DNA of 58,391 bases, from the NCBI GenBank assembly GCA_903881535.1, contig CAIRTT010000055.1:1-58391 (forward strand). The letters run 5' to 3'. The DNA comes from an uncultured Armatimonadetes bacterium. Its GTDB lineage: Bacteria; Armatimonadota; Armatimonadia; Armatimonadales; Armatimonadaceae. Positions within the stretch are counted from its first letter, which is position 1; every line of letters starts with the position of its first letter. The translations under genes and the position numbers were made by a program. The notes beneath the pieces are model-generated. The model saw nothing but the letters and a program-made list of their open reading frames with translations. It had not been told where the DNA came from and ran no database searches. Below are positions 23,404 to 40,000 of the stretch, piece after piece.

Positions 23404-25265
23404 AAACCATGCCCCTGTTCCCTACGCGCACCGAATGGGTTGCGCCCGAGACCTTCCCCCGTTTAGACGATGCAAAGGAGATTGCAATTGACCTCGAAAC
23501 CTGCGACCCGCACTTGGAATCGATGGGGCCCGGTTGGCCTCGTAATGATGGCTTTGTCGTCGGCTATGCAGTGGCCGTCGATGGCTGGTCCGGCTATTAC
23601 CCTGTTGCTCATGGTGGTGGTGGCAACTTGGATAAGCGACTTGTGGAACGATGGGTTGCTGATGTCCTTAAAACCCCCGCCGACAAAATCATGCACAACG
23701 CCGCCTACGACTGCGGATGGCTGCGCGCCAGTGGGTTCACCATTAATGGACGCGTCTGCGACACCATGCTCGCGGCCCCATTGCTCGATGAGAACCGGTT
23801 CAATTACTCTCTGAATTCTCTTGGATTTGATTACCTTCAAGAAATCAAAAGCGAAGCAGGGTTGAAACAAGCCGCGGCCGACTTCGGGGTGCATCCCAAA
23901 AAGGAGCTGTGGAAGCTGCCTGCGATGTACGTCGGAGAATACGCCGAGCAGGATGCAGCCCTGACATTAAAGCTGTGGCAGCATTTTAAGATCAAACTCC
24001 GCCAAGATGAGTGCGAATCCATCTTCGATCTGGAGACAAGGGTTTTCCCTGCCCTGCTGGACATGACTTTTCGTGGTGTTCGGTTTGACCGAGAAAAGTG
24101 TGGCCGTTTGATTGAGCAGCTGCAAAGCCGAGAGCAGAGCCTGCACAAAGAGATCAAGGCCATGGCCGGCATCCACGTCGATGTCTGGGCCGCACAATCG
24201 ATCGCCGTTGCCTTTGACCGCTTAAATCAAGCCTACACAAAGACGAGCCAAGGCGCACCGAGCTTTACCAAGGGTTTCCTTGACGGCTGCAGCCACCCGA
24301 TTGCCAAGCTGATCGTGGAAGCCCGCGAGGTGAACAAGACCCACGGCACGTTCCTCAAGCCCTACATGGAATTCAGCGCCAAGACAGGGCGCGTCCACAC
24401 GCACTTCAACCAGATGCGCAATGAGGACGGCGGCACCGTCACCGGACGACTGTCCGCGGCCAGCCCCAACTTGCAGCAGGTGCCTGCCCGCCACGAGATC
24501 ATTGGACCGATGGTGCGAGGACTGTTTCTGCCCGAAGAAGGGCAGCTGTGGGCATCCAACGATTTCAGCTCACAGGAGCCACGCCTGTTGGTGCATTACG
24601 CATCGCTCTTGGGCCTGCCTGGGGCCGACAAGATGGTTGACGCCTACCAAAACGATGCGCTTACCGACTTCCACCAGATGGTGGCCGACATGGCCGGCAT
24701 CAAGCGTAAGCAAGCAAAGACCATTGGCTTGGGGCTGATGTACGGCATGGGTGTGAACAAACTGTCCGCGGAGCTCGACTTGGACCTTGACGAAGCCAAG
24801 GACCTGATCGCCACCTTCCACCAAAAGGTGCCCTTCCTCAAAGGCACAGTGACCGCGGTGATGAAGCGCATTGAGCATCCGGCAACAGGGGGCGCAATAC
24901 GTACCTTGCTTGGCAGGAAGTGCCGCTTCCCGTTGTGGGAGCCGATGGAATGGGGCGTGAACAAGGCGCTGCCGCGGGAGCAAGCCGTCATTGAATATGG
25001 CCAACGGATCAAGCGCGCCGGCACCTACAAGGGGTTGAACAGGTTGATTCAGGGGTCAGCCGCGGACCAGACCAAAGCAGGCATGGCGGCGCTGTATGAA
25101 CAGGGCTATACCATGCTGCTGCAGGTGCACGATGAATTGGTGCTGAGTGTGGACAACAAAGAGCAAGCTGAGGCTGCTGCAGAGATCATGGCCAAGGCCG
25201 TGAACCTTGGGGTTCCCAGCCGCTGTGATGTGGAAGTGGGCCCGAACTGGGGCGAGGCGAAATAA
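23400..25265 (+). CDS. family A DNA polymerase with 3'-5' exonuclease domain
   Basis: Exonuclease motifs DLETCD and HNAAYD. Polymerase motifs DFSSQEPRLL (A), RKQAKTIGLGLMYGMG (B) and LQVHDELVL (C). Confidence 0.9.
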   Translation: MKTMPLFPTRTEWVAPETFPRLDDAKEIAIDLETCDPHLESMGPGWPRNDGFVVGYAVAVDGWSGYYPVAHGGGGNLDKRLVERWVADVLKTPADKIMHNAAYDCGWLRASGFTINGRVCDTMLAAPLLDENRFNYSLNSLGFDYLQEIKSEAGLKQAAADFGVHPKKELWKLPAMYVGEYAEQDAALTLKLWQHFKIKLRQDECESIFDLETRVFPALLDMTFRGVRFDREKCGRLIEQLQSREQSLHKEIKAMAGIHVDVWAAQSIAVAFDRLNQAYTKTSQGAPSFTKGFLDGCSHPIAKLIVEAREVNKTHGTFLKPYMEFSAKTGRVHTHFNQMRNEDGGTVTGRLSAASPNLQQVPARHEIIGPMVRGLFLPEEGQLWASNDFSSQEPRLLVHYASLLGLPGADKMVDAYQNDALTDFHQMVADMAGIKRKQAKTIGLGLMYGMGVNKLSAELDLDLDEAKDLIATFHQKVPFLKGTVTAVMKRIEHPATGGAIRTLLGRKCRFPLWEPMEWGVNKALPREQAVIEYGQRIKRAGTYKGLNRLIQGSAADQTKAGMAALYEQGYTMLLQVHDELVLSVDNKEQAEAAAEIMAKAVNLGVPSRCDVEVGPNWGEAK

Positions 25266-25335
25266 GTTGTTGGTGGTTCACATGAAGCAGTGTTCTGAAT
25301 TCATAACGGCGCTAACCCGTCGTTCCACCAACAAC
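25266..25335. terminator. inverted repeat filling the convergent intergenic gap (candidate bidirectional terminator)
   Basis: gttgttggtgg (25266..25276) pairs perfectly with ccaccaacaac (25325..25335). The 48-nt interior contains smaller palindromes (ttcacatgaa, tgaattca). Confidence 0.4.
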
Positions 25336-25641
25336 TTAAAAGTTTAACCACGTTTTTATTTTTTGCCAAAGCGTTGGCGTTGTTTTTTTCTGATCATCGA
25401 ACAAATCGAGTTGCTCCAGAATGAACATGTACTCGCCTTTGCCGCCGCGGGGGCTTTGCTGCAGCTCCGCGCGCAGCCGACCTTGAGACTGTAGGTATAA
25501 ACCCGCACGACGGATCACGGACGACGGGACACGCAGATCTCTGCCCAGCTCACTGGTCCTGGCCGTGTAGCCCACCTCACGCAGGTGGAACATGATCATG
25601 CGCTGCACTTCGATCGAGGTGTATTTCCTTGGTTCGCTCAT
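25336..25641 (-). CDS. winged-helix-like DNA-binding protein (tentative)
   Basis: 101 aa, the last gene of the leftward operon. Confidence 0.5.
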   Translation of the reverse strand: MSEPRKYTSIEVQRMIMFHLREVGYTARTSELGRDLRVPSSVIRRAGLYLQSQGRLRAELQQSPRGGKGEYMFILEQLDLFDDQKKTTPTLWQKIKTWLNF

Positions 25642-29109: not shown

Positions 29110-29348
29110 ATCTTTCCCCTTAATGTGCTCGTAAATGCCGGCTTTGCCGGTTGATGGCGACCATACGAAGCCAACAGCTCCGCTTGCTCACGCAAAATAT
29201 TTGAATCCATAGGACGCGCCATCTTCCAACGGTCCCCCAAAAAACGAATTGACTGCACCCACTTGCGCATGTTGGCGCGCTGCATGTCCCGAGAGACATG
29301 GCCCACGGACCAGAGACGACGGGCCTGCACTAAACGTGTCGTGTTCAT
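29106..29348 (-). CDS. hypothetical protein
   Basis: 80-aa ORF, coupled to its neighbours. Confidence 0.6.
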   Translation of the reverse strand: MNTTRLVQARRLWSVGHVSRDMQRANMRKWVQSIRFLGDRWKMARPMDSNILREQAELLASYGRHQPAKPAFTSTLRGKI

Positions 29349-29587
29349 TGCAAAGTCTCCTTCGAGCGAGACATGAAGTCATCGTGTAAAGCCTCAATGC
29401 CCTGCATCAAGGTGCGCTTGGGCATCCCCATGCCAATGCTTAAAACGGTGGCAGCAGCCATTAAACCAAGAACGCAATCGACAGGTTTTCCAATTTGTTC
29501 CTGAGAAAACCGTACAAGGATTTCAGCATTTTGCATCGCTGTTAGCATCATGTCTTGGGAATCTACGGAGTCGTTACTAGTTGTCAT
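29345..29587 (-). CDS. hypothetical protein, first cistron of the leftward operon
   Basis: 80 aa, preceded on the minus strand by AGAAAGGATAG (complement of 29591..29601). Confidence 0.6.
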   Translation of the reverse strand: MTTSNDSVDSQDMMLTAMQNAEILVRFSQEQIGKPVDCVLGLMAAATVLSIGMGMPKRTLMQGIEALHDDFMSRSKETLQ

Positions 29588-29590
29588 TAG

Positions 29591-29646
29591 CTATCCTTTC
29601 TGTGTTGAGAAGGTGTTATTATCAGGGTACAAGCGACACGTGTCAA
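29591..29646 (-). promoter_or_regulatory. strong sigma70-type promoter plus conserved leader for the leftward operon
   Basis: On the minus strand: TTGACA (29646..29641) - 17 nt - GATAAT (29623..29618), then AGAAAGGATAG. Confidence 0.7.
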
Positions 29647-29673
29647 GAAGAAAATAGAAAATATTTTGGGGAT

Positions 29674-29764
29674 TTTATTGTGGGAAACCCTTATGGGAAT
29701 ATATACAGGGTGGGAATGTACACAGGGTGTGGATTTATACAGAGTGGTGGTCTATATGTGGGTT
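29674..29764. repeat. iteron-like array of imperfect 13-18-bp direct repeats
   Basis: Units are atatacagggtggga, atgtacacagggtgtgga, tttatacagagtggtggt and ctatatgtgggtt, plus weaker units upstream (ttattgtggga, cttatggga). Confidence 0.6.
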
Positions 29765-29801
29765 TTGATCTAAGGAGGGGGGTTTTTATGTGTTTTTGCG
29801 G

Positions 29802-30021
29802 TTCCCTATAGAACTTTTTAGGGTAAGAGGTGTTTTTATTTTTTTAAAACGTCAAAATGGCGTAATAGACGTAATGGTGTAAGAAGTGAGTGTTTATGCG
29901 GGTTGTGGACTAGACGGTGACATTACAGGGGTAGTTGAGAGACGTAATTACTGGGATGTCCCAGACTTTTTTTTTGGAAGGTTTTTTTTTCATCGATACC
30001 CCTAAAAAGTTCTATAGGGAA
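29802..30021. repeat. 22-bp perfect inverted repeat pair separated by 176 bp
   Basis: ttccctatagaactttttaggg (29802..29823) is the reverse complement of ccctaaaaagttctatagggaa (30000..30021). The interior holds an AT-rich tract, AGACGTAAT x2 and T9-GGAAGG-T9. Confidence 0.85.
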
Positions 30022-30070
30022 ACAAGATTGGTTTTGGAGAGGGGAAAGGGCCTTGGACCATGGAGCGCGC

Positions 30071-30098
30071 TTGACATTGTTGTTGCAGCCGCTACATT
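30071..30098 (+). promoter_or_regulatory. sigma70-type promoter for the rightward terS block
   Basis: TTGACA (30071) - 16 nt - TACATT (30093), 33 nt upstream of the ATG at 30131. Confidence 0.55.
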
Positions 30099-30130
30099 GG
30101 TGTTCATTGAAATTGCATGGAGCAAAAGTT

Positions 30131-30361
30131 ATGTTACAAATAGAGAAAGATATTCCTGTTCCGGAGCAGACAACGAAGTATCCGTTCAAGGATATGGAGA
30201 CGGGCGACAGCATCTATTTTGAGGATGAGAGACAGGCCAACAGTGCCCGTGTATCGGCATTGCGGTTTGCGGGCCGTCAGGAGGCCGTCTGGGGCTTTAC
30301 GCTGCGAAAGACGGACCCAGACAGGGATAAGGTAGGATGGCGGCTCTGGAGGACTGAATAA
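30131..30361 (+). CDS. small conserved phage protein
   Basis: Start at MLQIEKDIPVPE with GGAG 9 nt upstream. The track start at 30053 would overlap the promoter. Confidence 0.55.
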   Translation: MLQIEKDIPVPEQTTKYPFKDMETGDSIYFEDERQANSARVSALRFAGRQEAVWGFTLRKTDPDRDKVGWRLWRTE

Positions 30362-31026
30362 TGGGCAAGAAGGACGTTTGGAATGTGCCCCCTGTCACGC
30401 CTGATAAGGCGCGCAATAGGTTGGCCACTCCCGTCAAACCCCTGAAGAAGTACAAAAGCCTTAGCGACAAGGAATGGACCTTTGTTCAGGAGCTTGTTGC
30501 GGGTGATGGACGGGTGACCATGAAGGAGGCAGCGCTTCGCGCAGGCTATACGGAAGTGAGCGCCTCTGTGATGGCGTGGAAGCTCACGAACCCTGATATC
30601 AATCCTCACGTGGTGTCGGCAATTCAGGCTTACCGTGCTGAATTGGCATCCAAGTACAACACGTCCTACGAGCGGCACATGAAGGACCTGCAGACGATCA
30701 GGGACAAGGCTCTGGAAGCAGGTGCGTACGCAGCTGCTGTACAGGCCGAATATCGCCGTGGCCAAGCCTTGGGTACGATCTACGTAGAGCGCAAGGAAAT
30801 CAGGCATGGCACGATCGACAGCATGAGCAAAGAGGAAGTGCAGCGCAAGCTGGACGAATTAAAACGGCTATATGGCGGTCCCCCACCGACTGCCTTGATT
30901 GATGCCGATACCGGAAAGGTGCTCGACAGTGTCGCAAGAGAAAAAGACCCCGCTTTTGAATCTGGAGTGGAAGAACCTCCGACTGACATTTTTGAACTGG
31001 ACCCCTCCGATGGCCCAGACTCCTGA
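30361..31026 (+). CDS. terS: terminase small subunit (Terminase_2-like)
   Basis: Pattern LSDKEWTFVQELVAGDGRVTMKEAALRAGYTEVSASVMAWKLTNPDINPHVVSAI, followed by a coiled-coil region. Confidence 0.7.
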   Translation: MGKKDVWNVPPVTPDKARNRLATPVKPLKKYKSLSDKEWTFVQELVAGDGRVTMKEAALRAGYTEVSASVMAWKLTNPDINPHVVSAIQAYRAELASKYNTSYERHMKDLQTIRDKALEAGAYAAAVQAEYRRGQALGTIYVERKEIRHGTIDSMSKEEVQRKLDELKRLYGGPPPTALIDADTGKVLDSVAREKDPAFESGVEEPPTDIFELDPSDGPDS

Positions 31027-31444
31027 GGCGCGCTTTTCTGCACGTGTTCGCGATGGCTTGGGCGCGGTCGGATGCGATGTGGAGCGAATCGAAAACAGGG
31101 TAAACCTTGGCGTGTCCGACATGGTGGTCGGCGTGGGTTCGCGCTATGTCACGATCGAGCTCAAAGCGGTTACCGCGGGGCTTAAGGTTACGCTGCGCCC
31201 CCACCAGATTGCCTTTTTGCTTCGCCATGGCCGCGCCGGCCGGCCGGCGTTTGTGCTTGTGTGGCAAGCAGCGCGCAAGGATAGCCCTGACTTTGTCCAT
31301 TTGTACCGCGGGCGCGATGCGATTGCCCTTGCTGAATCGGGTTTGCGCCTGATGCCTATGGCCGCATGGCCAAGCCGTGGCCTACCATGGCAAGAGCTGA
31401 AGGATGCCTTGATAGATGATGACTATCAGGGGGCTGAAAATTAA
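31010..31444 (+). CDS. VRR-NUC / PD-(D/E)XK nuclease
   Basis: Start at MAQTPEARF, a 17-nt overlap with terS. Contains GVSDMVV...VTIELK...LRPHQIAFL. Confidence 0.6.
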   Translation: MAQTPEARFSARVRDGLGAVGCDVERIENRVNLGVSDMVVGVGSRYVTIELKAVTAGLKVTLRPHQIAFLLRHGRAGRPAFVLVWQAARKDSPDFVHLYRGRDAIALAESGLRLMPMAAWPSRGLPWQELKDALIDDDYQGAEN

Positions 31445-35552: not shown

Positions 35553-37043
35553 GTGGCCCTTGGTCCACGCACCTATATGCAGCCAATTCCTGACGATGTC
35601 CAAGCGGAGCAGTTAAAACTTGAACTGCGGTTACGTACTTTGGAGGCGCATGATCGTGCAACCACGGGCTTTTTAGATTTCTGTCGATATGTGTGGCCGG
35701 AGATGTTGGTTGGTGAGCATCATTTGCGGATTGCGAAGGCGCTGGACAGGGTGGTTTCTGGAGAGTGCAAGCGGTTGATGATTGCGATGCCCCCGCGCCA
35801 TGGTAAGAGTCAGATGGGCAGTTATTTGTTTCCGGCATATCTCATGGGCCGTGATCCGACGTCCAAGTTAATTGTGGGATCCCACACGGCGGAGTTAGCG
35901 CAGCGTTTTGGCCGGATGATCAGGAACCTTGTGGATGATGAGCGGTACAAGGAGTTATTTCCTGGAACGTCTTTGTCGGTGGATTCCAAGGCTGCGGGCC
36001 GGTGGTCCACGAGCCAGGGAGGGGAGGCGTTTTTTATTGGTAAGGGTGGTGCAATGACGGGCCGCGGTGGTGACGTGGTTATTTTGGATGATATTTTGGA
36101 TGAGCAGGATGCGTTGTCGGATACGGCGATGGAGAACACGTTTGAGTGGTACACGTCGGGGCCTCGGCAGCGCCTGCAGCCCAATGGTTCTATTGTGGTG
36201 ATTAATACGCGGTGGAAGACGGATGATTTGACGGGGCGTTTGCTTAAGCAGCAGGGGAACTTGAAGGCGGATCAGTGGGAGGTGTTGGAGTTTCCGGCGA
36301 TCTTACCCAGTGGCAATGCCCTTTGGCCGGGGTACTGGAAGATTGAGGAGTTGGAGAAGGTCAAATTATCGATTGGGATGCAGAAGTGGAATGCTCAGTG
36401 GCAGCAGCAGCCTACGGGATCGGAGGGTGCGATCTTGAAGCGGGAGTGGTGGAGGAAGTGGAAGAATGATGTACCGCCTGTTTGTGAGTATGTGATCCAG
36501 AGTTATGACACGGCGTACTCTAAGAAGGAGACGGCGGATTATTCTGTGATATCCACGTGGGGTGTATTTTTTCCCAGTGCTGATTCGGGGCCAAATTTAA
36601 TTTTGTTGAATGTGCGCCGTGGTCGGTGGGACTTCCCGGAGTTAAAGCGTATTGCCAAGGACGAGTATCGGTACTGGAATCCTGACAATGTATTGATTGA
36701 GGCGAAGGCTACGGGTACGCCGTTGCAGCAGGAATTGAGGAAGATGGGGATACCGATTCAGATGTATTCTCCGGGGGGCAGGCGGCATGGTCAGGACAAG
36801 GTGAGCCGTGCGAACGCTGTGGCTCCGTTGTTGGAGAGCGGGATGATTTGGTATCCTGAGGATGAGGAGTGGGCGCAGGAGATGGTGGAGGAGTGCGCCG
36901 CGTTTCCTGTTGGGAGTCACGATGACCAGGTGGATTCAGCGGTAATGGCTTGGACGCGGTTTCGTGCTGGTAATTTCATTTCGCTGGAAGATGATGACAA
37001 CGAAGAGAAAGAGCCGGATAATAGGATACTGGAATATTATTAA
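35553..37043 (+). CDS. terL: terminase large subunit
   Basis: Walker A-like MPPRHGKS, Walker B VVILDDILDE, and nuclease motifs SYDTAYSKKETADYSV and GSHDDQVDSAVMAW. The start is ambiguous (GTG 35553 or ATG 35577) and neither has an RBS. Confidence 0.9.
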   Translation: MALGPRTYMQPIPDDVQAEQLKLELRLRTLEAHDRATTGFLDFCRYVWPEMLVGEHHLRIAKALDRVVSGECKRLMIAMPPRHGKSQMGSYLFPAYLMGRDPTSKLIVGSHTAELAQRFGRMIRNLVDDERYKELFPGTSLSVDSKAAGRWSTSQGGEAFFIGKGGAMTGRGGDVVILDDILDEQDALSDTAMENTFEWYTSGPRQRLQPNGSIVVINTRWKTDDLTGRLLKQQGNLKADQWEVLEFPAILPSGNALWPGYWKIEELEKVKLSIGMQKWNAQWQQQPTGSEGAILKREWWRKWKNDVPPVCEYVIQSYDTAYSKKETADYSVISTWGVFFPSADSGPNLILLNVRRGRWDFPELKRIAKDEYRYWNPDNVLIEAKATGTPLQQELRKMGIPIQMYSPGGRRHGQDKVSRANAVAPLLESGMIWYPEDEEWAQEMVEECAAFPVGSHDDQVDSAVMAWTRFRAGNFISLEDDDNEEKEPDNRILEYY

Positions 37044-37075
37044 CGCCAAAGAACGGCAAAGAAGGACCGCGAACC

Positions 37076-40000
37076 ATGGCCCAAGACATTATTGAAAAGA
37101 TTCGTGCGGCGGCGCAGGCGAAGGGCGTGGACCCTGACACGGCGCTGCGCATTGCGGGGGTGGAGAGTGAGTACACCCCGTCTGCTCAAAATACACGGTC
37201 CACGGCTGGTGGTTTGTTTCAGGTGATTGATGATACGTGGAAGCGGTATGGTGGCAAGCCTGGGATGAAGCATGATGTGGATGAGAACATCCGCGTGGGC
37301 ACGGACATCTTGGCGGACAACATGCAGAAGATGAAGCAGGCATTGGGCCGTGCGCCGCGGGCCTCGGAAGTTTATGCAGCGCATTTTTTTGGTCCTCAGG
37401 TAGCGCAGACGGTGTTGGCTACGGATCCTGATACGGCGTTGAACAAGGTGTTGACGCCCAAGGTTTTGGAAGCCAATCCGCAGTTGAGAAAAAAGACGGT
37501 GGGCCAGTTTGTTGGCGAGTTGCAGGCCAAGTTTGATAAGGAAGCCCCGGCTAAGGCGGTAGAGACTCCCGCGCAAAAGGAAATGCCTGATTTTGAAGCT
37601 GTGGGGCGCAGTCAGTTAACTGCGCAGGCGACCCCTGCTCCGCAGGACAGGATGCAGCAGCTACAGCAGCGCGTTGCGCAGTTGGGCCCGGGCTACCAAG
37701 CGGCTTTGGCTGCGGCGGTGTTGGCTGAAGATGATGATGAGGAAGCGGATGCAAGGAAAGAGGGCCGTGCTCGGGAGATGTTGGCGCAAGAAAACGCAGC
37801 GCCGCCCCCACAGCTGCTGGCCAATTTGAATATTCGTGCTTCCAACCCATTCCCGGAGGCCAAGATGGCCGAGGGTGGGGAGGTCAAGAATGAGGATGAG
37901 TCTCTAAGCGAGGACCAAGGGCAGGTGTACCCGGGCCGCGAAGAGGTAAGCCCATTTGCTTATGCGGGCAAGCACAAGACATCCACTGCCGATATTGAAA
38001 GCCTGATGGCGGGCTTGAATGTGGACAAAGCCACATTGGGTATTAATGTGGCCAGAATGAAACAAGGCGACAAAGATACTTTGGCGGGGGCCTTGATGGC
38101 TGCGTACAGGGAACGCGTGGGGGACGCAACAGTCAATGCTTCTGTGTCGCAACCCATTGGTTCGGGCGCTGCGGGTACTTACATGGGCGGGGCCAATATT
38201 TCCTATCCGGTGGGCCAGGGCCACGTCATGGCCGGGGTCAATGGAATGCGGGATTCGGAGCAAGGACCACGGGTCACGGGCTATAACTTGGGTTACTCGG
38301 GCAAGGTAGGTCCCGGCACTTTGGATGCATCGATTAATTTCCCCAAAGGGGCAAGCCCCATGGGCCAGCTGCAGTATCGCATCCCATTGGCCGAGGGTGG
38401 AGAGGTCAAGGAGCCATCCATACTAAGTTTGCTGGATTACTCTCGGTCCACGGCCCATGAAATGTACCCCGGGGAGCAGGGGCAGGATGATAAACAGGAT
38501 GCGGCGCGGCATATGTTGGCTGCGGCCACTTTGGCCAAAAAGGTAGGGCCTGATGTTGCTGAATTTTTAGGCAAAACGCATGAATTTATCACGTCCCCTG
38601 CCAAGGCAGCGTTGTATGCCATGGGTTTGGGGAAGATGCCCAAGGATTATGAGCAGGATTTGCACAATAACCGCCGGGGGATTGAGGTGGGCAAGGGTGC
38701 AAAGAGCCAGGCCGACTTGGAGCGCCTGATTAATCTGGATGTAGAGCGCGCAGCCAAACAAAAGATGTCTGATCGCCCGTGGGTGTACCGCGCGGGCGGT
38801 GGGGATGCAGAGCCAACGGCTGAAGAAATTGCGGCAGCATCTCAGCCAGCTAGGGTAAACCCCATGATCCAACGTCAGGGCGAAGCGGCCCGGCGTTTGG
38901 CACAGATGCGGGATGTGAACACGCTGCCTGATCCACGGACCTATGCAGCTGCTTCGGGGTTCATGGGCCAGGCTCCTGATGAGCAGGGTTTTTCCGTCAT
39001 GCATCCTGATGCTGCGGCAATTCGCAAAGCAGGGCAAGCAGGGTTTGCTGGCAGTTTTGTAGCCCCGGCCTTGGGTATGGTAATGTCTGGAATGGCCCCG
39101 TCAAGGGCGGCGCTGGGAACCAACTTGGCCAAGATGGAAGGCGCAGTCAAGCCGCGCGGGGGCACGTGGATGCCGTCTGGCAGGTTGGACGATCTGCTTG
39201 ACAATTACGCAAACGAGGCGTCGCGAGCTAATCCACAAAATGCTGACATTTACCGTGACATTATGGAAAAGAAAGCGCGCAAATATTTTCAAAATGATTT
39301 TGGCACGGCAGACGACAAATTACGCGTCGCTATTGCCAAAGGGGAAATTTCTTTATTTGGTAAAGATGTAGAGACGTTGCCGCCGTATTTGCTGGAAGCT
39401 GCGCGCAATCCTAACGCTGTTGGCCACGAAATAGCCAAGCGTCATTTGGAAAAAGGATACGACACCGCTGCCGATGTCCGTGGACAAATGTACACCGCTG
39501 ACAAACCAGAAGCATACACGTTAAGACAAGTAAAGGAAAACGAGATTCGTCAAAAAATGGAGCAGGAAGGCGTTCCCTTGGAATATCAAAACCACCCGTT
39601 TTACAACACGGTTGATTCGTCAGACATATCCAAATACCCATCCAATTACGAACAAGTAGGCCGTCTTTTGGAACAAGCGGATAAGGGGGTGTTGCCACCA
39701 AACCTGCTTCGCGCGCTTCAACAAAACGAAGTCATGTATGACGTGGGAACGCCAAGCCTGTCGTTGTTTGACGCCCGAGAAATTGGCAAGGGGATTGCGG
39801 CCCTGGATCCAAGCAAACTTAAGAGCATGAGCTTTGAGCAGATGGTAATTGAAAGCGCCAAAAAACTTGAGCCAATTCGAGACTACAACGCAGCAATTGA
39901 AAAAGCAGCATCAGGCGCGCAAGTTCCAAAAGAAGTGTTGTTTCGTTTTACGCAACCTGTTGTGGATACCGATGCGGGCAAATGGGTACAACTGACCGAC

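What the first reader, a model, noticed from the sequence alone, without database searches (positions are those of the whole stretch)
29588..30130. 540-bp divergent control region with iteron-like repeats, AT-rich tract and a 22-bp inverted repeat (candidate origin or switch)
Seen: a leftward promoter (TTGACA-17-GATAAT, 29646..29618) and a rightward promoter (TTGACA-16-TACATT, 30071..30098) flank the region. Between them are four to seven imperfect direct repeats of TAYACAGRGTGG type at 13-18-bp spacing (29674..29764). There is an AT-rich tract (29831..29858). AGACGTAAT occurs twice (29867, 29940), with CGTAAT at 29861. The palindrome ctgggatgtcccag lies at 29951. T9-GGAAGG-T9 lies at 29967..29990. 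A perfect 22-bp inverted repeat (29802..29823 and 30000..30021) brackets 176 bp. Established: iterons next to an AT-rich unwinding element are the hallmark of theta-type origins, and divergent early promoters with repeated operators form phage switches. Inference: this is the replication origin, the main early regulatory node, or both. The AEP primase and the helicases have no other obvious loading site.
Basis: partly seen in the sequence, partly recalled or inferred. Interest (0 to 1): 0.7.

Follow-up and report, generated by a model that had tools for sequence, protein, structure and literature searches.

The report
Conserved DNA control module beside terminase gene
The 540-bp gap holds two outward promoters around a 220-bp DNA module that related phages always keep just upstream of the small-terminase gene, so it looks more like a DNA-packaging start site than the replication origin first proposed, though only experiments can decide.

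Summary
The window is a phage related to the HTVC023P group (closest record: Phage DSL-LC04). About 100 distinct relatives carry the same layout: two inverted arms with a CTATAG core, a T-tract inside each arm, three tandem 9-bp GTAAT boxes plus inverted copies, a central bend site, and a G-rich box. In this clade, sigma-70 promoters face outward on both sides.

- **Arm spacing:** it falls in steps of about 11 bp (about 206, 217 and 228 bp), which suggests a looped or wrapped protein-DNA complex.
- **RNA:** no conserved fold is predicted and there is no Rfam match.
- **GC skew:** the minimum at 29.5 kb reflects gene direction. DSL-LC04, whose flanking genes run the same way, shows no minimum there.
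- **Linked gene:** the only constant neighbour is terS. In one clade terS starts 13-60 nt after the right arm, with no divergent promoters.

My best reading is a terminase recognition (pac-like) site that also forms the head of the late operon (confidence 0.4). A replication origin (0.25) and a purely regulatory role (0.2) remain open. One contig carries the core inverted; this is probably an artefact.

The parts
29345..29587 (-). First gene of the leftward operon (80 aa, no confident family)
   Evidence: ORF list. No PHROG hit. Only a weak winged-helix hit, E 0.038.
29618..29646 (-). Leftward sigma-70-type promoter TTGACA-17-GATAAT
   Evidence: 11 of 12 matches. Equivalent TTGAC(A/C)-17-GATA(A/C)T sites are seen in relatives.
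29635..29644 (.). 10-bp palindrome GACACGTGTC overlapping the -35 hexamer of the leftward promoter (operator-like)
   Evidence: Direct reading. Relatives carry ACGT(A)GTGTCC repeats at the same promoter.
29694..29765 (+). Three 17-bp-spaced repeats TGGGAATATATACAGGGTGG plus a degenerate fourth; specific to this lineage
   Evidence: Kept in the 93%-identical relative L207. Other clades have GGACCGnGGACCG heptads or one or two TGGGTGGATATACAG copies here.
29802..29823 (+). Left arm TTCCCTATAGAACTTTTTAGGG (CTATAG core at 29806-29811)
   Evidence: Perfect 22-bp inverted repeat. The TATA core is invariant in 17 diverse relatives, including DSL-LC04.
29833..29849 (+). T5-A-T7-A4 tract just inside the left arm
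   Evidence: Direct reading. In 101 distinct relatives the longest T run at this position is 8 or more in 69.
29859..29885 (+). Three tandem 9-bp boxes GGCGTAATA / GACGTAATG / GTGTAAGAA
   Evidence: The block G.CGTAAT.GACGTAATG..GTAA is at least 80% conserved across 17 representatives.
29886..29905 (+). Central segment (TGTTTATGCGGGTT variant). The IHF-consensus site of most relatives sits at this position.
   Evidence: 57 of 101 distinct relatives have WATCAAnnnnTTR at this fixed position, against 2.5% of shuffles. The window and 12 others carry the alternative sequence.
29920..29948 (.). Inverted box (ACATTAC, 29920-29926) and a further direct box AGACGTAAT (29940-29948)
   Evidence: The columns A.ATTAC and GTAA are conserved.
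29951..29964 (+). G-rich palindrome CTGGGATGTCCCAG (conserved as GGG.G...C..CG)
   Evidence: The hairpin itself is not conserved in relatives, so it is not a general terminator.
29967..29990 (+). T9-GGAAGG-T9 tract just inside the right arm
   Evidence: Direct reading. Relatives have T or A runs of 6-14 here.
30000..30021 (+). Right arm CCCTAAAAAGTTCTATAGGGAA (CTATAG core at 30012-30017)
   Evidence: The arm cores are 206 bp apart here; relatives fall in classes of 201-208, 216-221 and 227-228 bp.
30071..30098 (+). Rightward sigma-70-type promoter TTGACA-16-TACATT
   Evidence: Conserved as TTGAC.-17-TATACT in most relatives. Absent in the clade where terS abuts the arm.
30131..30361 (+). 76-aa gene (GGAG ribosome-binding site at 30119-30122), function unknown
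   Evidence: Only hypothetical homologues with no Pfam domain. Present in 78 and absent in 20 of the 98 distinct relatives with a TerS match.
30361..31026 (+). Small terminase subunit (TerS)
   Evidence: phrog_51, E 2.4e-7. Weak Terminase_2 hit, E 0.029. Weak match to the SF6 G1P DNA-binding domain, PDB 2cmp, E 0.36. Annotated as terS in DSL-LC04 and HTVC023P.

Best explanation
The region is the cis-acting head of the terminase/late operon of an HTVC023P-like phage. Two host-type promoters fire outward. Between them lies a 220-bp module that works as DNA, not RNA.

The module has two inverted CTATAG arms held in a fixed rotational register. Each arm is backed by a T-tract, and together they enclose five to seven GTAAT boxes in both orientations around a central bend.

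I propose that proteins bend or wrap this DNA so that the two arms meet, and that the complex is the site where the adjacent SPP1/SF6-G1P-like small terminase recruits the large terminase to start headful packaging (a pac-type site). As in SPP1, the same complex would also damp the neighbouring late promoter.

Shown: the sequence anatomy, its conservation, the stepped arm spacing, the constant linkage to terS, and the lack of a conserved RNA fold.
Inferred: which protein binds, whether and where DNA is cut, and the headful mode of packaging.
For: 1. Conservation. The same layout is found in about 100 distinct relatives, although the spacer is only about 50% identical overall. It is recognisable in DSL-LC04 and in outline in HTVC023P.
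2. Linkage. terS lies downstream on the same strand in 98 of 98 distinct elements with a TerS match. In 14 of them terS starts within about 13-60 nt of the right arm, with no 76-aa gene and no sigma-70 promoter in between. In the members of that clade I examined, the upstream genes run in the same direction. The left-hand neighbours vary between relatives.
3. Spacing. Arm cores are 201-208 bp apart (52 elements, mode 206), 216-221 bp (10) or 227-228 bp (2), with none in between. The longer classes come from several lineages. Steps of about 11 bp point to a requirement for helical phase.
4. Central bend. An IHF-consensus site sits at one fixed central position in 57 of 101 elements, against 2.5% of shuffles.
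5. TerS type. TerS has weak G1P-type matches. The nearest studied TerL relatives are Aaphi23, PY100 and Pam1; I recall these as headful packagers.
6. Precedent. SPP1 pac overlaps the late promoters, the ribosome-binding site and the 5' end of terS, and TerS binds the flanking pacL and pacR (PMC6316719). TerS rings are thought to wrap bendable, AT-tract-rich DNA (PMC4737164).
7. Not RNA. RNAalifold gives a consensus energy of -2.4 kcal/mol, and there is no Rfam hit.
Against: - No DNA ends were mapped. Contig ends are not enriched in the module.
- The GTAAT boxes stay constant while the putative TerS recognition helix varies widely (SASVMAWK, RANQHGTD, TAKESARL). DSL-LC04, with a similar TerS, has altered boxes. 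If TerS read the boxes base by base, the two should change together. (The SF6 TerS domain is reported to bind without sequence specificity, PMC4737164.)
- The TerS family matches are weak.
- No known pac or cos site has arms placed outside the boxes.
- terS is also the first late gene, so the linkage fits a late-promoter control region equally well.
- HTVC027P has a different spacer at the equivalent place.
Confidence: 0.4

Rival explanations
1. Replication origin. The GTAAT boxes are iterons for a phage initiator (for example the AEP primase or an unnamed early protein). The T-tracts are the unwinding element, and the outward promoters help to open the DNA.
For: Repeated boxes in both orientations sit beside long T-tracts and a central IHF-type site. 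In this clade the module lies between divergent promoters. This is the most prominent non-coding stretch I saw near the replication genes; the apparent gap at 18.3-18.6 kb reads as coding. No initiator gene or other origin candidate was found. The boxes stay the same while the TerS helix varies, which fits a different, conserved binding protein.
Against: The module is never adjacent to the replication genes; it is 3.6-7 kb from the end of PolA. It always travels with terS. Known phage origins usually lie in or beside the initiator gene (my knowledge; for SPP1 oriL see PMC6316719). GC skew gives no support once gene direction is controlled for. The boxes are 9 bp apart, not one or two helical turns.
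Confidence: 0.25
2. Purely transcriptional control region. The boxes and arms bind a phage regulator, with host IHF, to form a DNA loop that times the late (terS) operon and, in this clade, the leftward operon.
For: terS is the first late gene, so the linkage fits this reading as well. The arms have palindromic cores (for example ATCCCTATAGGGAT in L007) at phased spacing, like paired operators. In the clade where terS abuts the right arm, no sigma-70 promoter is seen, so a promoter may lie within the module. An operator-like palindrome lies on the leftward promoter.
Against: No regulator was identified. The left arm is kept even where there is no leftward gene. No promoter-like site lies inside the module in the window. 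The module is unusually elaborate for an operator pair.
Confidence: 0.2
3. Invertible switch. Recombination between the perfect 22-bp arms flips the 176-bp core.
For: Contig Ga0209500_10005378 (L003/L155/L216) is 100% identical to L207 over 8198 bp but carries the core in the opposite orientation next to the right arm. The size and repeat length match known invertible elements.
Against: That contig ends 152 nt into the inverted path, about one read length. Six other near-identical relatives from other samples, plus L207 and the window, have the usual orientation, as do 148 of the 150 loci with a TerS or 76-aa-gene match; the two exceptions are the same contig. No recombinase turned up in the family scans I ran, which did not cover every ORF of the window, and no promoter was found in the core. 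Most relatives have imperfect arms. Fold-back or template switching at the repeat would produce exactly this junction.
Confidence: 0.04
4. Two divergent promoters for a phage single-subunit RNA polymerase. Read outward, each arm ends in CTATAGGGA(A/G), the same as positions -5 to +4 of the T7 promoter, and the 22-bp arm has the length of such a promoter.
For: The match to the T7 consensus is from my own knowledge. Relatives read CTATAGGGAG. In some relatives terS starts 13-27 nt after the arm.
Against: No RNA polymerase was found by Pfam, PHROGs or NCBIfam among the large proteins. A published comparison lists the polymerase as specific to the other phage, not to HTVC027P (PMC12753301). There are only two copies in 58 kb. 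The left arm persists where no gene lies leftward. The core is a palindrome.
Confidence: 0.03
5. A structured non-coding RNA of about 220 nt closed by a 22-bp stem.
For: In the window the arms form a perfect stem. Folded as single-stranded DNA the energy is -26 kcal/mol with a z-score of -2.9.
Against: The consensus fold of 17 relatives is -2.4 kcal/mol. Only the invariant TATA and T/A runs pair, and many relatives lack 10 contiguous complementary bases. There is no Rfam match. Both promoters point away from the module.
Confidence: 0.02

Closest known systems
SPP1/SF6 pac site (pacL-pacC-pacR) with the G1P small terminase
   Same: It sits at the head of the late operon and overlaps or abuts the late promoters and the start of terS. 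It has repeated boxes and AT-tracts that favour bending. TerS binds two flanking segments and brings them together, and TerS also represses its own promoter (PMC6316719, PMC4737164). The TerS here has weak G1P-type matches.
   Different: Here the inverted arms are on the outside and the boxes on the inside. The boxes are 9-bp tandem units and also occur inverted. A central IHF-type site is common. No cleavage site has been mapped. The module lies upstream of terS rather than reaching into it.
Lambda cosB (R3-I1-R2-R1) next to Nu1, and P1 pac (hexamer clusters around an IHF site)
   Same: Both have short boxes in both orientations on either side of an IHF bend. Lambda cosB lies immediately upstream of the small-terminase gene; P1 pac lies within it. 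The module is about 200 bp long, like the distance from cosN to the Nu1 start. (These details are from my own knowledge.)
   Different: The TerL here is of the Terminase_6 type, not lambda gpA. There is no evidence for cohesive ends. Neither system has a counterpart to the two CTATAG arms. There are no GATC-type methylation boxes as in P1.
Iteron-type phage and plasmid origins (for example SPP1 oriL and oriR: direct repeats plus an AT-rich unwinding element)
   Same: Repeated short boxes lie next to AT-rich tracts, sometimes with IHF. SPP1 oriR lies in a non-coding stretch of the late region (PMC6316719).
   Different: No linked initiator gene is present. The boxes are spaced 9 bp apart. The module is flanked by inverted arms. 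It is always linked to terS rather than to replication genes.

Membership tests
pac/cos-type terminase recognition site | Lies in or immediately beside the small-terminase gene | tested here: met
   terS is downstream on the same strand in 98 of 98 distinct elements with a TerS match. In 14 of them it starts within about 13-60 nt of the right arm.
pac/cos-type terminase recognition site | Virion DNA ends or the first packaging cut map to the site | tested here: inconclusive
   No reads were available. Contig ends are not enriched in the module: 6 in 230 bp against about 25 in the flanking 1140 bp. The GenBank records are rotated arbitrarily.
pac/cos-type terminase recognition site | The cognate TerS binds the repeats, so boxes and TerS DNA-binding residues change together | tested here: not met
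   The boxes are constant while the putative recognition helix differs widely among carriers, and DSL-LC04 has a similar helix but different boxes. Binding itself cannot be tested here.
pac/cos-type terminase recognition site | Bendable DNA: AT-tracts and/or a host bending-protein site between the boxes | tested here: met
   T or A runs lie inside both arms in nearly all relatives. An IHF consensus is at a fixed central position in 57 of 101. The window itself lacks the IHF consensus.
Iteron-type (theta) replication origin | Several iterons next to an AT-rich unwinding element | tested here: met
   Three tandem boxes, one or two inverted and one more direct, lie beside T5AT7 and T9GGAAGGT9.
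Iteron-type (theta) replication origin | Linked to the gene for its initiator or to the replication module | tested here: not met
   No initiator was identified. The module is separated from PolA and the primase by 3.6-7 kb of variable small genes and always travels with terS.
Iteron-type (theta) replication origin | Strand-composition switch caused by replication | tested here: not met
   The window's G-C minimum is at 29501, but DSL-LC04 has no minimum at the homologous site when the flanking genes run the same way.
Iteron-type (theta) replication origin | Supports replication and gives a marker-frequency peak | not testable with these tools
   This needs infection time-course sequencing or a plasmid replication test.
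Invertible DNA switch (inverton) | Both orientations present in natural populations | tested here: inconclusive
   One contig end shows the inverted form. Eight near-identical sequences and 148 of the 150 loci with a TerS or 76-aa-gene match show the usual form.
Invertible DNA switch (inverton) | A site-specific recombinase encoded nearby, and a promoter or gene part inside the segment | tested here: not met
   No recombinase appeared in the family scans I ran, which did not cover every ORF of the window. No promoter-like site lies between the arms.
T7-type single-subunit RNA polymerase promoter | The phage encodes the polymerase, and the promoter recurs ahead of gene blocks | tested here: not met
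   No polymerase domain was found. There are only two copies in the window. The left arm is kept where no leftward gene exists.
Structured non-coding RNA | Base pairs kept through compensatory changes across relatives | tested here: not met
   The RNAalifold consensus energy is -2.4 kcal/mol, and the paired columns are mostly invariant. There is no Rfam match.
Divergent-promoter phage switch | Back-to-back promoters with operators, conserved across relatives | tested here: inconclusive
   Both promoters and an operator-like palindrome are present and conserved in this clade. They are absent in the clade where the module sits between co-directional genes. No repressor was identified.

The most novel reading that the evidence does not exclude
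The perfect 22-bp arms are a working recombination site. The 176-bp core flips in a fraction of genomes and reverses the polarity of the packaging or replication start site. This would be a programmed orientation switch in a lytic phage, carried out without a dedicated invertase by the phage's own recombination or replication template switching.
Probability: 0.04. Interest if true: 0.7.

Novelty: new variant of a known kind. Interest (0 to 1): 0.42.

Why it matters
HTVC023P-type phages are reported as the most abundant known phage group in marine viromes (bioRxiv 10.1101/2019.12.14.876532). The relatives found here include many more from other metagenomes, among them lake samples. In the papers I checked I found no mention of an origin, packaging site or promoter for the group.

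This module is a conserved, precisely bounded cis element. It gives a concrete target for mapping how these genomes are packaged or replicated. It is also a short DNA signature (arms plus GTAAT boxes) that retrieves members of the group from metagenomes. The 11-bp steps in arm spacing make a simple, testable prediction about DNA looping.

Tried and rejected
- **Nucleotide searches against phage records:** megablast and blastn found nothing useful.
- **RNA and tRNA:** Rfam (gathering and E-value modes) and tRNA scans gave no hits in the window.
- **GC skew as origin evidence:** rejected after the DSL-LC04 control.
- **Structured RNA:** rejected by the consensus fold.
- **RNA polymerase or recombinase:** Pfam, PHROGs and NCBIfam scans found neither.
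- **The 76-aa gene:** a homologue search returned only unnamed proteins, and a sequence search against solved structures gave only chance-level hits.
- **Physical ends:** contig ends are not enriched in the module. Apparent clustering of locus starts downstream of terS fell at non-homologous positions and may be storage boundaries.
- **Record termini:** the HTVC023P record starts at a gene start, so it gives no terminus information.
- **Co-variation:** box sequence did not track the divergence of TerS, the primase or PolA.
- **Second candidate spacer:** the gap at 18.3-18.6 kb reads as coding.
- **Bacterial genome scan:** it found only phage contigs binned into metagenome-assembled genomes, so there is no firm host.
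- **HTVC027P:** its equivalent spacer differs and did not help.

Full report
**Observation.**
- The 22-bp inverted repeat (29802-29823 and 30000-30021) is perfect. The 22-mer occurs nowhere else in the window even with three mismatches, and 100 shuffles gave none.
- The promoter scan ranks the leftward TTGACA-17-GATAAT first in 25-31.5 kb (11 of 12 matches). The rightward TTGACA-16-TACATT ties for second at 10 of 12.
- Three 20-nt repeats lie at 17-bp spacing (29694-29747), with a degenerate fourth.
- Three of the window's six + strand CGTAAT fall at 29861, 29870 and 29943.

**Genome context.** The window is a phage genome.
- Replication genes lie at 16-25 kb: SNF2 helicase, RecE-like exonuclease, AEP primase, UvrD-like helicase and family A DNA polymerase.
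- Small leftward genes lie at 25.9-29.6 kb.
- From 30.1 kb a long rightward block carries a 76-aa gene, terS, a VRR-NUC-like nuclease, terL, the portal, the capsid and tail genes. It appears to continue into the start of the window.
- The nearest records are Phage DSL-LC04 (PolA 72% identical, TerS 69%) and the Pelagibacter phages HTVC023P and HTVC027P.

**Relatives share the layout.** DSL-LC04 and HTVC023P also have a 550-650-bp spacer upstream of terS, with an inverted repeat spanning about 220 bp. A TerS-based scan of IMG/VR and a scan with the internal motif CGTAATAGACGTAATG gave about 100 distinct copies.

The spacers are only about 50% identical overall but share one order of parts:
1. 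a left arm ..CC(C)TATAGrnnTTTTTrGGG;
2. a long T-tract;
3. three tandem 9-bp boxes (G.CGTAAT.GACGTAATG..GTAA);
4. a central segment;
5. one or two inverted boxes (ATTAC);
6. a further direct box;
7. a G-rich box (GGG.G...C..CG);
8. a T or A run;
9. a right arm AAAA...CTATAGG.

Most relatives then have TTGAC.-17-TATACT, the 76-aa gene and terS. A leftward TTGAC(A/C)-17-GATA(A/C)T promoter is also seen in the relatives I inspected. The TAYACAGRGTGG repeats are kept in the 93%-identical L207. Other clades carry GGACCGnGGACCG heptads there instead. Traces of those heptads appear in DSL-LC04 and HTVC023P, and to the right of the right arm in the window (30050-30067).

**It acts as DNA, not RNA.**
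- The consensus fold of 17 diverse copies is only -2.4 kcal/mol. The only long-range pairs join the nearly invariant TATA cores and the T and A runs of the arms.
- Many relatives lack 10 contiguous complementary bases between the arms.
- There is no Rfam match at any threshold.
- Both promoters point away from the module.
- The window's stem gives a z-score of -2.9 as single-stranded DNA, but that stem is specific to this lineage.

**GC skew.** The cumulative G-C minimum falls at 29501, as the origin idea predicts. It also coincides with the switch from leftward to rightward genes. In DSL-LC04 the small genes left of the spacer run the same way as the late genes. There, skew is positive on both sides and dips only over two reversed genes. 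Skew in this group follows gene direction and says nothing about an origin.

**What the module is linked to.**
- terS follows the module on the same strand in 98 of 98 distinct elements with a TerS match.
- In 14 of them (TerS 58-69% identical to the window's), terS starts within about 13-60 nt of the right arm. There is no 76-aa gene and no sigma-70 promoter in between.
- In the members of that clade I examined, the genes upstream run in the same direction, leaving a spacer of about 300 bp that is essentially only the module.
- The divergent-promoter setting is therefore a clade feature, while the link between module and terS is general.
- The left neighbours differ: small leftward genes here, an HNH endonuclease in DSL-LC04, gp20 in HTVC023P.
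- Cis-acting sites usually stay beside the gene for the protein that uses them. This is my inference from general knowledge, and it favours a terminase-related role.
- It fits a late-operon control region equally well, because terS is the first late gene.

**Geometry.** Arm cores are 201-208 bp apart in 52 distinct elements (mode 206), 216-221 bp in 10 and 227-228 bp in 2. None fall in between, and the longer classes come from several lineages. Steps of about 11 bp suggest that the arms must face the same side of the helix, as in a loop or wrap. An IHF-consensus site sits at one fixed, near-central position in 57 of 101 elements, against 2.5% of shuffles. The window and 12 others have TGTTTATGCGG there instead.

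**Terminase type.**
- TerS matches phrog_51 (E 2.4e-7). It matches Pfam Terminase_2 weakly (E 0.029) and the SF6 G1P DNA-binding domain, PDB 2cmp, weakly (E 0.36).
- TerL is of the Terminase_6 type, and its nearest studied relatives include Aaphi23, PY100 and Pam1. I recall these as headful packagers but did not verify that.
- In SPP1, pac overlaps the late promoters, the ribosome-binding site and the 5' end of terS. TerS binds pacL and pacR on either side of the cut, and it represses its own synthesis (PMC6316719).
- TerS rings are proposed to wrap bendable, AT-tract-rich DNA (PMC4737164).

**Evidence against TerS reading the boxes.** The putative recognition helix differs widely among phages that share the GTAAT boxes, and DSL-LC04 has a similar helix but altered boxes. 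Divergence of the primase, PolA or TerS does not track the boxes either. The binding protein remains unknown; it could be a host factor.

**The inverted copy.** Contig Ga0209500_10005378 (L003/L155/L216) carries the core inverted next to the right arm.
- It is 100% identical to L207 over 8198 bp, and L207 has the usual orientation.
- It ends 152 nt into the inverted path.
- Six other near-identical relatives from other samples have the usual orientation with perfect arms.
- So do 148 of the 150 loci with a TerS or 76-aa-gene match.
- Fold-back or template switching at a perfect repeat would give exactly this junction.

I treat it as a probable artefact or a rare recombinant. No recombinase turned up in the family scans I ran.

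**The T7-like look of the arms.** Read outward, each arm ends in CTATAGGGA(A/G), which matches the core of the T7 promoter as I recall it.
- No RNA polymerase was found.
- The transcriptome paper lists the polymerase as specific to the other phage, not to HTVC027P (PMC12753301).
- The motif occurs only twice in the window.
- The left arm persists where no gene lies to its left.

I keep this only as a lead.

**Verdict.** The region is a conserved cis element of a widespread phage group. Its function is not settled. My ranking is a pac-type terminase recognition site at the head of the late operon (0.4), a replication origin (0.25) and purely transcriptional control (0.2). It is a new variant of a known kind of element, of moderate interest.

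Noticed in passing
L083 4897-5017 (Pelagibacter phage HTVC027P, MN698241.1, spacer between gp35 and gp34): The large spacer at the equivalent position in HTVC027P has no CTATAG/box module. It does contain a full-length match to the Rfam Flavobacterium-1 RNA (RF02976, 90 bits against a gathering score of 58.9). The neighbouring genes gp33 and gp34 were reported as an unusual early-to-middle expression cluster (PMC12753301).
   Followed up: partly
window 29635-29644: A perfect 10-bp palindrome GACACGTGTC overlaps the -35 hexamer of the leftward promoter. Relatives have ACGT(A)GTGTCC repeats over the same promoter, which looks like an operator for an unidentified regulator.
   Followed up: no
window 31010-31444: A VRR-NUC-like (PD-(D/E)XK) nuclease gene overlaps the end of terS by 17 nt (phrog_2165 and phrog_93). 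It is kept after terS in the relatives checked, at 31-99% identity, so it may belong to the packaging module.
   Followed up: no
L003/L155/L216 (Ga0209500_10005378) against L207 (Ga0114978_10002755): The two contigs are 100% identical over 8198 bp but differ in the orientation of the 176-bp core. The inverted one stops 152 nt past the arm, so this is either a rare inversion or a fold-back or assembly artefact.
   Followed up: partly
L091, L149, L118, L208 (relatives); window 30012-30021 for comparison: In one clade the terS start codon lies 13-27 nt after the right arm, and the arm's own GGGAG or GGAG sits where a ribosome-binding site would be.
   Followed up: partly
window 30050-30067; L001 4924-4990; L002 5738-5760; many IMG/VR relatives left of the left arm: Heptad-like GGACC repeats (GGACCGC GGACCGA GGGTC) recur in the spacer from the marine HTVC023P to the other relatives, though on different sides of the module. 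Their function is unknown.
   Followed up: no
L019, L066, L070 (relatives), inside the module: The 11- or 22-bp longer versions of the module carry an extra internal arm-like motif (GCTATATAGG or GCTATATGGG). L204 has a third arm-like copy that also reads as a good sigma-70 -10 hexamer (TTGATT-17-TATAGT) for the leftward gene.
   Followed up: no
window 36000-39000: GC skew is unusually high (+0.38 at 36-37 kb) over the end of terL and the start of the 1126-aa protein with a lytic transglycosylase domain. This is well above the rest of the late block.
   Followed up: no
window 25263-25380: A perfect 14-bp inverted repeat (25263-25276 and 25325-25338) and a terminator-like hairpin (25364-25379 followed by a T run) lie just after PolA. 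They probably mark the end of the replication operon, where it meets the leftward genes.
   Followed up: no
L208 (JAIXOW010000141.1), L210 (DATHYR010000413.1): Phage contigs carrying the module are binned into Oxalobacteraceae and Pseudomonadales metagenome-assembled genomes. This is a weak hint at the host range and is not proof.
   Followed up: no
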